Made by a program: the position numbers. A DNA stretch of 58,189 bases, filler included, from Candidatus Woesearchaeota archaeon (GTDB taxonomy: Archaea; Nanobdellota; Nanobdellia; Woesearchaeales; ARS49), in assembly GCA_016188265.1 (NCBI GenBank). It is 3 parts of 3 records of this genome, joined end to end, with 100 filler letters (N's around TTAATTAATTAA, not from the genome) between each part and the next. Parts side by side here need not be neighbours in the genome. Positions count along the whole stretch, not along the records: positions 25,214 to 50,851 come from JACPID010000017.1; 2 more parts are not named here. One strand, written 5' to 3'. Below, piece by piece: positions 37,801 through 40,800 of this stretch (positions within the stretch are counted from its first letter, which is position 1; each line of letters begins with the position of its first letter).

Positions 37801-40800
37801 TTTTGTGGATGTGGATTAAAAAAAGCATAATAAGTCTTTGAGATTTCAATAAATTTATTCCATAAATCTTTAAGAGCCTGAAGTTTTTTTTGAGCATCTT
37901 CTGAATCAACTAGTTTAGGCAATCTTATTCCTTCATAATGCTGTTTTGATTTTTTTACTAGTCCAGAAATGTTTGATGACTCCATACACCTACTATAACC
38001 TAAAGATGTTATGCTAATATTGCCTGAAGGAAGATAAAAATCTCTTTTAACAGGAAAAAATAAATTAGTATGGTGAATAAAATGAAGATTATAATAGGTA
38101 CAAGTATAACAACAATTACAATTCTCTCTCTTATCTCTAACTTTAAAAAAATCAAAACTATTGCCAAAATCTAATAATAATTTCCAATTTTCAGTGATGC
38201 TTTTTTCAAGCTCTGAATCCACTAATTGCAATTTCATCAAATTAATAAAAAAGAGACTTGTTTTTATAAATATTTCTAAATAATACAAACAAGCGCTATA
38301 ACACTTGTTGTTCCTAAAGGAAGTGTGACATCTGCAATATATAATTTAGTTCCGTCAGAAAAAGTTGTAGAATGCCCTGCTCTTCCTTCTATAACTTCTC
38401 CAGCTTTTTCTAGTAAAACAGATTTTTTTTCAAGCTCTAATTTTTTTACAAGAATATTTTCTGATTTAATAGCTTCAAGTTCTTGAACAGCTCTAATAAG
38501 TTTTGAATCTTTACACAATTGATACTTTTCTTTACTCATGCAATCATAGGGGCAAGTAAGTATAGATTCTTCTAATTCACACACATTATTATAATTGCAA
38601 CTAAAACCTTGAGAATTTTTTAATTTTTTAGAAATAAGCATTTTCTTCCAGATATTATTATCTTCATTTAATTCTTTAATACGATTATTTTTAGCTGTAG
38701 TGAAAGAAGAACGGTCTAGATAAACTTTTAATTCATGATCGCCTTTTTTAAGCCATAATTGAGGTCCTCCTTGTATTTCTCTGCTCTCACCAGGCTCTAA
38801 TGGAGCTTTGAGATCGAGCCATCCTTGATTTTTTCCATTAAGCTCGTATTCAAGCATAAACTTTTCATTAGGGACTGTTGCAGTTCCTATATTAGTTAAA
38901 CTAAGAATTATGTCTGTTGGAACATTTTCAGCAATTGTATCTTCAGGAACAAGATTTCCACGTTGCTTGAAAACAGCACCAGTTATGACTAAATCAGGCA
39001 AGTAATCTATAATTCTTGGTTGAACAACAAGTTGTTGATCATTAGCATCAGATAATTCTGGCTGTGGTTCTAAAATATCATAAGAATCTTGGATGCTTTT
39101 TTTGTTTTCTAATTTATTTTTTTCTAAACCTACAATTCTTCCTTGAACAATTGGCTTAATTGGTTTATGAATTGTTGGCTCATACAAAGAAAATTCTGTA
39201 CTAACATGATAATATCCAGAAGGGCTTTGTACTGGCAAAAGAGATACACCTAATAAAATTATAAACAAAAGTGTTGCACCTATCACTACACCTTCTTTTT
39301 GCATAAGATGAATAAAATACTTTAACTATATAAAGTTACTTGCACCAGCTTTGCAGTGTCAACCTAACTCCCCATAAAACAAAAAATAATGACCACCAGT
39401 TAACATTCACAGTTGGTAAAGCATCCATATCAACAAGCAACAACCAAATACCAACTAAAAGAACCAATAATCCAAACCATGTTGGACACCAATTACTTGC
39501 CGGACATCCATAGTTTTTTTTTGCCATAATCTCACCTCTATAAAAACATTTAGAATAGAAAAGTATTTAAACTATAGCTCCTTGTTTTAGTAATACGCGT
39601 ATTAAATGAGGTGATAGGCCTATGGATTTTGAAGAAAAAATGATGCTTGTTGTTCTTGGTGTAGTGCTATTGTTTGCGCTTGCCGGCCTTGCATTAGTTC
39701 TTAAAGGAGGCAGTGTAACAGGTCAAGCATTTGCATATTCTGTTGCTGAAGGCGAAGCATTTGCAGTTACAGAACGTTTAGCAGGTCGTGAACTGTTAAA
39801 CACATTGTTGTATAAGTGCAGTTCCCCTTTTGCAGGAAAAGAAGAAGGTGAATTACAAAAAGCAGCTTATGCATTTGATTCAAGAACAAAAAGCTGGCTT
39901 GAAGACGAGTATGGATTTACTTGTGAAGAACTAAGCTGGGATTTACCACAGTTTAAATAATTTTTTTTAATATTACGTCGCTCAAGTTAATGGGCGGCAC
40001 ATTTTTTTTTTCTTTTATAATCATTTTATAATCAATAAGCTTTAAAGTGTTTGTGCATTTTTTGTTTAACAAATGCAAATCAAAGATGCTGAAAAACTAC
40101 ATCCTGAACTTAAGAAAATATTTGTTCTAGAAAACATTCATGAATTTAGGCCTGTACAGGAAAAATCATTAAAATCAGGTTTGTTAGATAATAAAAACCT
40201 TTTAGTTTGCACTCCAACTGCAAGTGGGAAAACACTTATTGCAGAAATGGCAATTGCTCATCATGTTCTTGAAAAAAAATTAAAAGCAATTTATATTGTT
40301 CCACTTATTGCATTAGCTAATGAAAAATACAAATCTTTTAAAAAAAGATATGAAAAACTTTACAAAATTGCATTATCAATAGGAGATTTTGATTCTAGTG
40401 ATTCGCAATTATCACAATATGATGTTATTGTTTGTACTGCAGAAAAACTTGATTCACTTTTAAGACACAATGTTCCTTGGTTATCTTCTGTTGGCTTGAT
40501 AATTATTGATGAAATTCATTTATTAAATGATCCTGGAAGAGGGCCAACTGTTGAGATTTTAATAACAATGTTTAAACACATTCTTAAGAATTTACAAGTT
40601 ATTGGCTTATCTGCAACAATTGGCAATCCTAAAGATCTTGCTGAATGGTTGGAAGCTGAACTTATTCAGGATTCTTGGAGGCCAATTCAATTACATCAAG
40701 GCATTTATTTTAATGGAATGATAGAATTTGTTAAAGAATAATTATAAATATCTTTCTGAAACTTTTTGTTATTCATTTAATTTTTTTTTAGAACGCGTTT

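What a model noticed while it worked through the whole genome (the two positions that open the first line are those of the whole stretch)
40073..40741. Hel308 helicase is encoded as two unlinked genes (RecA1 | RecA2-WH-ratchet), a split conserved across Woesearchaeales
The Ski2-like DNA helicase Hel308 is not one gene here: g00671 (C17:14860-15528, 222 aa, complete ORF) is only the first RecA domain (aligns to P. horikoshii Hel308 residues 7-213) and g00526 (C14:3-1565, 521+ aa) is the rest (residues 224-695). The genes are on different contigs and in relatives lie apart, so the ATPase site must be built from two polypeptides. The split is seen throughout the order Woesearchaeales but not in the one genome of another order that has a strong match.
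Evidence so far: Both genes hit HELS_PYRHO over complementary ranges. Pfam: g00671 ResIII/DEAD only; g00526 Helicase_C, HTH_61, Helicase_dom4_arc. Whole-genome searches: the N-part lies in an open frame of 219-252 aa in 17 of 20 family members searched (2 others show only ~645-aa paralogues at E about 1e-22, 1 nothing); in 5 of 5 relatives checked the C-part (open frames 492-529 aa) is on another contig than the N-part. Phylum sample: 31 of 33 other Woesearchaeales genomes have the N-part, all in open frames of 215-350 aa; of 7 genomes of other orders one matched, in a 718-aa frame, i.e. unsplit.
(Added by a program. Inside this text positions count along the whole contig: they may not be those of the stretch shown here. 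"Call 12" and the like, gene names such as g00115 and contig names such as C1 are that model's own, and its searches are not shown. The text may have been shortened before it was handed on; [...] marks where a part breaks off. The agent that wrote the report below was given it as the finding of a first reader that could run no searches.)

Follow-up and report, generated by a model that had tools for sequence, protein, structure and literature searches.

The report
Hel308 helicase encoded as two genes
This tiny groundwater archaeon, like nearly its whole order, encodes the DNA-repair helicase Hel308 as two separate, distant genes whose products most likely snap together into one working motor.

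Summary
Window 40073-40741 (+) is a complete 222-codon gene for the front of Hel308. It covers RecA1 and about 21 residues of the second motor domain. The rest is a separate gene on another contig (G000:C14:3-1565/1604, minus strand). They are the only orphan RecA1 and the only orphan RecA2 in this 0.92-Mb genome.

- **Spread in the order:** in a sample of one genome per family, 53 of 60 have the front piece and 56 of 60 the rear piece. Among the 51 with both, none has them adjacent; on shared contigs they lie 29-332 kb apart.
- **Wider sample:** 109 of 116 in-order genomes carry the front piece, always in frames of 350 aa or less. All 5 matching genomes of sister orders have a one-piece gene of 711-744 aa.
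- **History and constraint:** the cut site is the same everywhere, trees fit a single fission, and all ATPase motifs are invariant in both pieces.
- **No joining signal:** I found no intein and no RNA-joining signal.
- **Co-fold:** the model supports binding (0.87 against 0.01 for the best control), though this may reflect memory of solved one-chain Hel308 structures.

New here: the cut lies inside RecA2, in a hairpin turn, so the front piece probably docks by strand complementation. No paper I searched reports this. This scan has already noted the same split in other genomes. Association and activity remain untested.

The parts
39961..40072 (+). 112-nt AT-rich intergenic region upstream of the N-piece gene. 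It is the presumed own promoter region and contains TTTATAA-like words.
   Evidence: Read directly. No promoter test was possible for archaea, so this is an inference only.
40073..40741 (+). Gene for the Hel308 N-piece: 222 aa, comprising RecA1, the hinge and the first beta-hairpin of domain 2. The range includes the TAA stop at 40739-40741.
   Evidence: ORF. PDB 2zj2 residues 11-214 at E 4e-63. Pfam DEAD at 117 bits. NF002654 positions 1-218 of 739. A contig from another sample bridges both ends.
40211..40234 (+). Motif I (Walker A, TPTASGKT), residues 47-54.
   Evidence: Invariant in 12 of 12 N-pieces from 12 families.
40508..40519 (+). Motif II (DEIH, Walker B), residues 146-149.
   Evidence: D146, E147 and H149 are invariant and I148 is conserved in at least 90% of rows. 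The codons were read.
40610..40618 (+). Motif III (SAT), residues 180-182.
   Evidence: Invariant in 12 of 12 N-pieces.
40676..40738 (+). Residues 202-222: the WRP hinge plus two short strands (210-213 and 216-219). In one-piece Hel308 these belong to domain 2 (RecA2). This is the proposed docking tail.
   Evidence: Residues 202-218 align to 2zj2 residues 198-214. PfuHjm domain 2 is residues 198-399 (PMC2636818, passages). The AF2 model has strands at 210-213 and 216-219. In the co-fold, residues 204-221 touch C-piece residues 172-184 and 2-9.
40769..41197 (-). Convergent ORF of 142 aa, hydrophobic, with no Pfam match. It is not part of the helicase. It marks that the Hel308 reading frame ends here.

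Best explanation
An ancient gene fission cut the Hel308 (Hjm) gene of the common ancestor of this order into two genes that now sit far apart.

**The two pieces**
- The window gene makes a 222-aa chain with the whole RecA1 domain (motifs Q, I, Ia, Ib, II, III), the inter-domain hinge, and the first short beta-hairpin of RecA2.
- The second gene, on contig C14, makes a chain of about 520 aa with the rest of RecA2 (motifs IV, IVa, V, VI), the winged helix, the ratchet domain and the helix-hairpin-helix end.
- Each is translated from its own start to its own stop. Nothing joins them covalently.

**Proposed assembly (inferred)**
- The N-piece tail inserts as a strand beside the strand that follows motif VI in the C-piece, completing the RecA2 sheet.
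- Its last strand pairs with the first residues of the C-piece.
- The winged helix packs against RecA1.
- Because the hinge stays covalently intact within the N-piece, the two RecA domains can still open and close on ATP. The heterodimer should then translocate 3'-5' on single-stranded DNA as one-piece Hel308 does.

**Shown:** the two genes, their complementarity, their separation, the conserved cut site, the single origin, the invariant motifs.

**Inferred:** association, the strand-complementation geometry, and activity.
For: **Complementary matches.** The two ORFs match one family over complementary ranges: PDB 2zj2 residues 11-214 and 229-688, and NF002654 positions 1-218 and 223-711.

**Only possible partners.** G000 has exactly one copy of each piece (tblastn). 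Of 5 Helicase_C and 5 above-cut-off DEAD matches in the genome, only these two lack the other domain in their frame.

**Spread in the order (1 genome per family, 60 others).**
- The N-piece is present in 53, in frames of 197-335 aa.
- The C-piece is present in 56.
- Both are found in 51. In 46 of these they are on different contigs, and in 5 they share a contig at 29, 37, 92, 275 and 332 kb apart. Two of those five are single-contig genomes.

**Phylum sample.** 109 of 116 in-order genomes have the N-piece, all in frames of 153-350 aa. All 5 matching genomes of other orders have frames of 711-744 aa that contain both parts.

**Same cut site.** All 12 N-pieces end after a conserved (I/V)xF: 11 within 1-4 residues and one after 14. 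All 16 C-pieces have a Met 16-28 residues before motif IV. One-piece relatives run through this spot in a loop with indels.

**Single origin.** Split forms are one side of a branch in three trees:
- N region: 27 split against 58 intact, SH-aLRT 88.
- C region: 16 against 57, support 41, with 15 of 16 in a clade at 92.
- C region: 16 against 110, FastTree support 97.

**Constraint.** Motifs I, II and III, with the Ia/Ib cores, are invariant or at least 90% conserved in the N-pieces (motif II I148 is at 90% or more). The cores of motifs IV, IVa, V and VI, including the GRAGRP arginines, are invariant or nearly so in the C-pieces.

**Co-fold.** The median score is 0.87 and the best of 3 controls is 0.01. 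This mark was reached by 116 of 157 solved complexes and 2 of 215 mismatched pairs. The runs agree in at least 99% of contacts and the partner pLDDT is at least 87.

**Domain boundary.** PfuHjm domain 1 is residues 1-197 and domain 2 is 198-399 (PMC2636818, passages read). This puts N-piece residues 202-222 in domain 2.
Against: - No experiment shows that the two chains bind or that the pair hydrolyses ATP or unwinds DNA.
- The co-fold pass may come from the model's memory of solved one-chain Hel308 structures (2zj2, 2p6r, 2va8). It therefore shows likeness, not binding.
- Co-occurrence is imperfect. Even with profile searches, three genomes at least 96% complete show only one piece: G019 and G053 have the C-piece only, and G010 has the N-piece only. 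Three less complete ones do too (G048, G058, G024). In G037 only a 44-residue N fragment at a contig end was found. These are drafts of 60-140 contigs, so the gaps may be due to assembly.
- The C-piece of G000 runs off its contig, and its start codon is uncertain: ATG at C14:1565 or ATG at 1508. I folded the shorter form.
- No RNA data exist for this organism among the runs offered.
- The genes share no operon, so how equal amounts of the two chains are kept is unexplained.
Confidence: 0.85

Rival explanations
1. Subfunctionalisation. After the fission the two proteins work apart, or with other partners. For example, the C-piece could act as an ATP-independent DNA-binding or annealing clamp and the N-piece as a stand-alone nucleotide-binding protein.
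For: Seven of the 60 order genomes show only one piece, three of them at least 96% complete. The genes are never linked or co-transcribed. The abstract of PMC10484726, seen only in the listing, reports a strand-annealing function of Hel308 modulated by motif IVa, which lies in the C-piece.
Against: The motif VI arginines, motif V and motif IV in the C-piece, and the Walker A/B motifs in the N-piece, are invariant or nearly so across families. None has a known role outside a composite RecA1-RecA2 ATP site. That last point is established SF2 knowledge and was not tested here. G000 offers no other orphan RecA domain as a partner. G006, 96% complete, lacks both pieces. The domain-2 hairpin kept on the N-piece has no evident use without the rest of RecA2.
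Confidence: 0.08
2. The pieces are joined after transcription or translation into a one-chain Hel308. This would happen by split-intein protein splicing or by RNA trans-splicing of the kind known for Nanoarchaeum tRNA halves.
For: Inteins are common in close Hel308 relatives (Pfam intein domains in the listing, sequences read). Table 1 of PMC3655853 lists split genes, including a DNA polymerase, in Nanoarchaeum. That the polymerase is rejoined by a split intein is my recollection and was not seen in a call.
Against: No intein domain appears in either piece. The N-piece stops 3 residues after the conserved (I/V)xF, and in relatives the C-piece Met lies 16-28 residues before motif IV. Nothing resembling intein halves of about 100 and about 35 residues is present. 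The inteins of relatives sit in motifs I, V and VI, not at the cut. The longest complementary run between the N-piece 3' flank and the C-piece 5' flank is 8 nt Watson-Crick or 10 nt with G-U. That length was equalled or beaten in 275 and 276 of 300 shuffles.
Confidence: 0.02
3. Artefact or decay: a mis-assembly, a frameshifted pseudogene, or a gene truncated by a contig end.
For: G000 is a draft of 25 contigs, and the C-piece touches a contig end.
Against: Both ends of the N-piece gene lie deep inside a 25.6-kb contig and are bridged by an independent sample's contig. The same short frames occur in 109 of 116 in-order genomes, including single-contig ones. About 3947 database clusters of 122-389 aa match at E 1e-30 or better, and the best 120 are 208-274 aa long. 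Catalytic motifs are invariant.
Confidence: 0.01

Closest known systems
Archaeal Hel308 / Hjm (Ski2-like SF2 DNA helicase; P. furiosus Hjm 2ZJ2, A. fulgidus 2P6R, S. solfataricus 2VA8, 9B15)
   Same: The full set of helicase motifs is present, and the domain order is the same: RecA1, RecA2, winged helix, ratchet, HhH. The two pieces are the best PDB and NCBIfam matches over complementary ranges.
   Different: It is two polypeptides from unlinked genes instead of one chain of about 700-720 aa. The cut lies about 20 residues inside domain 2. Neither piece, nor the sum of their scores (267 + 456 bits), reaches the NF002654 cut-off of 887.
Split protein genes of Nanoarchaeota: N. equitans and Nst1 reverse gyrase, 'large helicase-related protein' NEQ003-409, Glu-tRNA amidotransferase and others (Podar et al. 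2013, PMC3655853, Table 1 read)
   Same: A DPANN archaeon with a reduced genome encodes an information-processing enzyme as two separate genes, which the paper says require 'post-translational assembly'. A helicase (Lhr) is among the known cases.
   Different: The enzyme is different (Hel308) and so is the lineage. Lhr is intact here at 959 aa and 1169 bits against a cut-off of 849. The Hel308 cut site is fixed across at least 60 families of one order, whereas the Lhr split differs between the two nanoarchaea. The cut falls inside a RecA domain of the motor core.
One-piece Hel308 of sister orders of the same class (G106, G133, G130, G182, G069; 711-744 aa)
   Same: They are 47-55% identical to the N-piece and 36-48% to the C-piece, similar to in-order relatives. 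G106 and its kin are the nearest outgroup of the split clade.
   Different: They are continuous through the cut site, which in them is a variable loop with indels.
Intein-bearing Hel308 genes (for example Methanocaldococcus and uncultured relatives)
   Same: Same family. One relative (P0211) is itself a split-type N-piece that carries an intein in the P-loop.
   Different: The inteins sit in motifs I, V or VI and are spliced out of one chain. The fission site has no intein.

Membership tests
Hel308/Hjm helicase (NCBIfam NF002654 / NF040935) | RecA1 with motifs Q, I, Ia, Ib, II (DExH) and III | tested here: met
   The N-piece matches Pfam DEAD at 117 bits. The motifs are invariant or at least 90% conserved in 12 of 12 N-pieces.
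Hel308/Hjm helicase (NCBIfam NF002654 / NF040935) | RecA2 with motifs IV, IVa (F/YHHAGL), V and VI | tested here: met
   The C-piece matches Helicase_C at 42 bits. F96, H97, H98, G100 and L101, and Q161 with G164 through P169, are invariant in 16 of 16 C-pieces.
Hel308/Hjm helicase (NCBIfam NF002654 / NF040935) | Winged-helix domain 3 and ratchet domain 4 | tested here: met
   HTH_61 scores 36 bits (cut-off 24.3) and Helicase_dom4_arc scores 99 bits (cut-off 27).
Hel308/Hjm helicase (NCBIfam NF002654 / NF040935) | C-terminal helix-hairpin-helix domain 5 | tested here: inconclusive
   HHH_5 scores 25.3 bits, below its cut-off of 27, and the ORF runs off the contig. The 2zj2 alignment reaches residue 688 of 720.
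Hel308/Hjm helicase (NCBIfam NF002654 / NF040935) | Whole-protein score above the curated equivalog cut-off, as one polypeptide | tested here: not met
   The two pieces score 266.7 and 456.4 bits against a cut-off of 887. They are two chains. So this is a two-chain variant of the family and not a member as the model defines it.
Hel308/Hjm helicase (NCBIfam NF002654 / NF040935) | DNA-dependent ATPase and 3'-5' helicase activity | not testable with these tools
   This needs biochemistry on the co-expressed pieces.
Split (fissioned) protein genes of DPANN archaea | Two ORFs that together cover, without overlap or loss, a protein that is one chain elsewhere | tested here: met
   The N tail and the C head together span about the same length as the loop in one-piece relatives.
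Split (fissioned) protein genes of DPANN archaea | Each ORF is intact with its own start and stop, and the pair is kept by selection across lineages | tested here: met
   The exception is the stop of the G000 C-piece, which lies beyond the contig end. The stops of 15 relatives' C-pieces were seen.
Split (fissioned) protein genes of DPANN archaea | The products reassemble in trans into an active enzyme | tested here: inconclusive
   The co-fold scores 0.87 against 0.01 for the best control. This supports binding but does not show it. No assay was possible.
Split-intein (protein trans-splicing) genes | An N-intein at the end of the first ORF and a C-intein at the start of the second | tested here: not met
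   No intein domain appears in either piece. The termini leave no room for one.

The most novel reading that the evidence does not exclude
The fission turned Hel308 into a dissociable, regulated motor. The C-piece alone would stay on DNA as an ATP-independent clamp or annealing factor. Docking of the small RecA1 subunit, by strand complementation into RecA2, would switch on translocation. Helicase activity would then be set by the supply of a separate 25-kDa 'ignition' subunit and not by the enzyme's own abundance. That would make it a natural two-component SF2 helicase.
Probability: 0.1. Interest if true: 0.75.

Novelty: new variant of a known kind. Interest (0 to 1): 0.5.

Why it matters
Hel308 is the archaeal counterpart of human HELQ and of the POLQ helicase domain. 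It is normally one chain whose ATP site lies between two covalently linked RecA domains.

- **A natural split through the motor.** A whole order of archaea, with at least 60 families sampled, has kept the motor cut in two since a single ancient event. This shows that the covalent link after the first strands of RecA2 is dispensable.
- **An evolution-tested split site.** It offers a ready site for studying inter-domain coupling or for engineering split helicases.
- **Annotation.** Thousands of database entries now labelled only 'DEAD/DEAH box helicase' or 'hypothetical' are Hel308 subunits.
- **Missed by published surveys.** The Ski2-family survey PMC10946056 required at least 60% COG coverage and removed 53 archaeal sequences as partial or lacking the full motif set (passages). 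Such a filter would drop both pieces and could make Hel308 look absent from this order.
- **DPANN split genes.** The case extends the catalogue from a few nanoarchaeal genomes to a fission fixed across an order.

Tried and rejected
- **RNA evidence.** The look-up of sequencing runs listed no RNA holder. It returned 4 DNA runs of one groundwater study, 3 of which may be the source. Expression therefore could not be examined.
- **Read laying.** This gave contigs only, which is useful for contiguity and nothing else.
- **RNA trans-splicing guide.** No complementarity beyond chance was found.
- **Intein origin of the cut.** The inteins of relatives lie in motifs I, V and VI, not at the fission site.
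- **Synteny.** I looked for neighbours shared between the N loci, the C loci and the one-piece loci, to tell which half 'moved'. With flanks of about 1.5 kb, only antisense shadow frames and one neighbour shared by 4 of 12 N loci appeared, and nothing was shared with the one-piece loci.
- **Another partner in G000.** None exists. The other four SF2 helicase frames carry both domains. The weak tblastn hit on C25 is an intact Lhr.
- **Profile searches for the missing halves in 9 genomes.** They recovered only a 44-residue N fragment in G037. Everything else was a paralogue.
- **Literature.** Seven searches (plus passages in 24, 26, 27, 30, 31, 53) found no report of a split Hel308. The library lacks most subscription journals, and I opened no supplements. 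Supplementary Table S1 of PMC10946056 might list the excluded partial sequences.
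Full report
**What is at the coordinates.** Window 40073-40741 (+) is a clean ATG-to-TAA ORF of 222 aa.
- It matches Pfam DEAD (117 bits) and ResIII only.
- Its best solved relative is P. furiosus Hjm/Hel308 (2zj2), residues 11-214, at E 4e-63. 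A. fulgidus and S. solfataricus Hel308 follow.
- It covers positions 1-218 of the 739-position NCBIfam Hel308 model NF002654.
- A convergent, hydrophobic 142-aa ORF begins 27 nt after the stop, so no Hel308 sequence continues downstream.
- The window is three contigs joined by runs of N, and the gene lies 14.9 kb into the 25.6-kb contig C17.
- DNA contigs of four runs of one groundwater study cover the locus. A 734-base contig from the one sample not flagged as a possible source bridges both the start and the stop with no difference.

**The other half.** The genome is 923,817 bases in 25 contigs and 98% complete.
- tblastn finds one N-piece and one C-piece.
- The C-piece is C14:3-1604 on the minus strand.
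- It matches 2zj2 residues 229-688 at E 1e-89 and NF002654 positions 223-711.
- Pfam finds Helicase_C, HTH_61 and the archaeal helicase domain 4, plus a sub-threshold HhH.
- Its 5' end is inside the contig, beside a divergently transcribed membrane-protein gene. Only its last few codons run off the contig.
- Family scans of the whole genome find five Helicase_C frames and five above-cut-off DEAD frames. Four frames have both domains: a 405-aa DEAD-box protein, 775-aa and 613-aa helicases, and a 959-aa Lhr. The only orphans are these two ORFs.

**Distribution in the order.** I sampled one genome from each of 60 other families of the order.
- 53 have a strong N-piece match (E 5e-63 or better) in open frames of 197-335 aa.
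- 56 have the C-piece.
- Both are found in 51, the N-piece only in 2, the C-piece only in 5, and neither in 2.
- Of the 51 with both, 46 have the pieces on different contigs. In 5 they share a contig: G021 29 kb apart, G016 37 kb, G034 92 kb, G022 275 kb and G025 332 kb. G016 and G025 are single-contig genomes. None has them adjacent.

**Profile searches of the nine genomes with a piece missing** recovered only a 44-residue N fragment at a contig end in G037.
- G019 (96% complete), G053 (98%), G048 (82%) and G058 (63%) still show no N-piece.
- G010 (97%) and G024 (78%) still show no C-piece.
- G006 (96%) and G054 (83%) show neither.
- A genus-mate of G053 does have the N-piece (G118).

**Distribution in the phylum.** I sampled 150 other high-quality genomes.
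- 109 of 116 in-order genomes have the N-piece at E 1e-25 or better, all in frames of 153-350 aa.
- Of 34 genomes from other orders, 5 match, and all 5 in frames of 711-744 aa. I fetched these and confirmed that they contain both parts in one frame.
- The other 29 have no match at that threshold.

**Cut site.**
- All 12 N-pieces from 12 families end after a conserved (I/V)xF: 11 within 1-4 residues and one after 14.
- All 16 C-pieces have a Met 16-28 residues before motif IV.
- One-piece relatives run straight through this point, in a stretch that carries indels among them.
- No residues are lost or duplicated.
- In G000 the C-piece start is ambiguous. The ATG at C14:1565 is the gene caller's choice. 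It preserves an I-x-P word seen at the start of several relatives, at the price of an insertion of about 19 residues. The ATG at 1508 gives the length typical of relatives. This does not affect where the cut lies.

**The cut is inside RecA2.** Oyama et al. give PfuHjm domain 1 as residues 1-197 and domain 2 as 198-399 (PMC2636818, passages).
- By the alignment, N-piece residues 202-218 correspond to Hjm residues 198-214, and the alignment ends there.
- An AF2 model of the N-piece alone (mean pLDDT 84.9) has the last RecA1 strand at 196-199 and then two short strands at 210-213 and 216-219. Confidence is lower there: 73, 81 and 58 per block.
- So the N-piece keeps the hinge and the first hairpin of domain 2. 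The break is at the hairpin's far end.

**Association.** ESMFold2 co-folding used my own alignments (12 and 16 rows, and the 502-residue form of the C-piece).
- Scores were 0.87, 0.88 and 0.87, against 0.01 for the best of 3 controls.
- That mark was reached by 116 of 157 solved complexes and 2 of 215 mismatched pairs.
- The runs agree in at least 99% of contacts, and the partner's pLDDT is at least 87.
- The lowest-error contacts pair N-piece residues 208-212 in register with C-piece residues 175-181, the strand after motif VI.
- N-piece residues 161-165 and 189-192 pair with C-piece residues 234-243 in the winged helix.
- The first residues of the C-piece (2-9) and the motif I, V and VI regions are also in the interface.
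- This is the Hel308 fold reproduced from two chains. Because one-chain Hel308 structures are solved, the pass may be memory. It shows likeness, not binding.

**Constraint and history.**
- Motifs I, II and III, with the Ia/Ib cores, are invariant or at least 90% conserved in the N-pieces. The cores of motifs IV, IVa, V and VI are invariant or nearly so in the C-pieces. Overall identity between families is 46-64%.
- Split forms fall on one side of a single branch in an N-region tree (27 split, 58 intact, SH-aLRT 88).
- The same holds in a C-region tree (16 and 57, support 41, with 15 of 16 in a clade at 92).
- It also holds in a larger FastTree of the C region (16 and 110, support 97).
- For the trees I left out 15 of the 120 listed long hits: those outside 685-770 aa, mostly intein-bearing or partial, plus P0211. 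In some searches I used every second remaining one.
- One-piece proteins that NCBI labels 'Candidatus Woesearchaeota' (P0123, P0150, P0168, P0174) fall outside the split clade. The split therefore marks the order-level clade sampled here. It does not mark everything carrying that NCBI name.

**Rivals.**
- *Covalent joining* is unsupported. There is no intein domain. The termini do not resemble intein halves. The inteins of relatives sit in motifs I, V and VI. There is no RNA complementarity beyond chance.
- *Artefact or decay* is excluded by the breadth and conservation above, and by about 3947 database clusters of 122-389 aa at E 1e-30 or better. The best 120 of these are 208-274 aa and are named only 'DEAD/DEAH box helicase', 'helicase' or 'hypothetical protein'.
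- *Independent function of the halves* cannot be excluded. It is disfavoured by the invariant composite-site motifs and by the lack of any other orphan partner.

**What is known.**
- Split protein genes are a recognised trait of Nanoarchaeota. They include a split Lhr helicase and reverse gyrase (PMC3655853, Table 1 and passages; PMC6349945, passages).
- In G000, Lhr is intact.
- No paper in the searched library mentions a split Hel308.
- The 2024 Ski2-family survey required at least 60% COG coverage and removed 53 archaeal sequences as partial or lacking the full motif set (PMC10946056, passages). Such a filter would hide both pieces.
- This scan has already described the same split from other genomes of the order. 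I read those notes only after my own tests, and they agree with them.

**Verdict.** This is a real, ancient, order-wide fission of Hel308 into two unlinked genes. It most likely yields a non-covalent two-chain helicase held together by strand complementation within RecA2. It is a new two-chain variant of a well-known enzyme and a new case of the known DPANN habit of splitting genes. Association and activity await experiment.

Noticed in passing
G000:C25:2-2881 (L035), outside the window: There is an intact 959-aa Lhr helicase here (NF010338 at 1169 bits against a cut-off of 849; Pfam DEAD, Helicase_C, WH_Lhr and DEAD_assoc). Lhr is the helicase that is split in Nanoarchaeum and Nst1. In this genome Lhr is whole and Hel308 is split.
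   Followed up: partly
L036:438-2348 (G043:C45) and about 30 other order genomes: A one-piece Ski2-like paralogue of 630-690 aa with a C-terminal DSHCT domain is common in the order, matching the N-piece at E about 1e-17 to 1e-24. It was not found in G000 by tblastn.
   Followed up: partly
Proteins P0125, P0139, P0196, P0235, P0177, P0211: Hel308 relatives carry inteins in motif V (four proteins), motif VI (one) and motif I (one). P0211 is a split-type N-piece, ending at the usual cut site, that also hosts an intein in its P-loop.
   Followed up: partly
G000:C14 (L001) 1508-1604: The start of the C-piece is ambiguous between GTG at 1604, ATG at 1565 and ATG at 1508. If the 1565 start is real, G000 has an insertion of about 19 residues between the first strand and the first helix that 15 relatives lack.
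   Followed up: partly
C-piece loci of G017, G041, G049, G056, G055, G014, G048, G003: In eight genomes the C-piece match breaks into two stretches near query residues 300-306, between the winged helix and the ratchet. Some open frames are long (G056 769 aa, G055 636 aa). This suggests lineage-specific insertions or extensions. I did not examine it.
   Followed up: no
window 41262-41609 (-) and 38276-39304 (-): The neighbours are ordinary. One is an aIF-1A gene (Pfam eIF-1a, 61 bits). The other is a 342-aa secreted or membrane protein with a CARDB domain. The ORFs at 39622-39960, 40769-41197, 41824-42285 and 42286-42810 have no Pfam match.
   Followed up: partly
window 25114-25213 and 50852-50951: The window is three contigs (C16, C17 and the start of a third) joined by runs of N. 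ARAGORN finds no tRNA gene anywhere in the 58 kb.
   Followed up: no
N-piece loci L003, L004, L008, L009: In 4 of 12 N-piece loci the same large neighbouring ORF recurs (about 470 aa, Lys/Glu-rich N-terminus). No neighbour is shared with C-piece or one-piece loci within flanks of about 1.5 kb.
   Followed up: no
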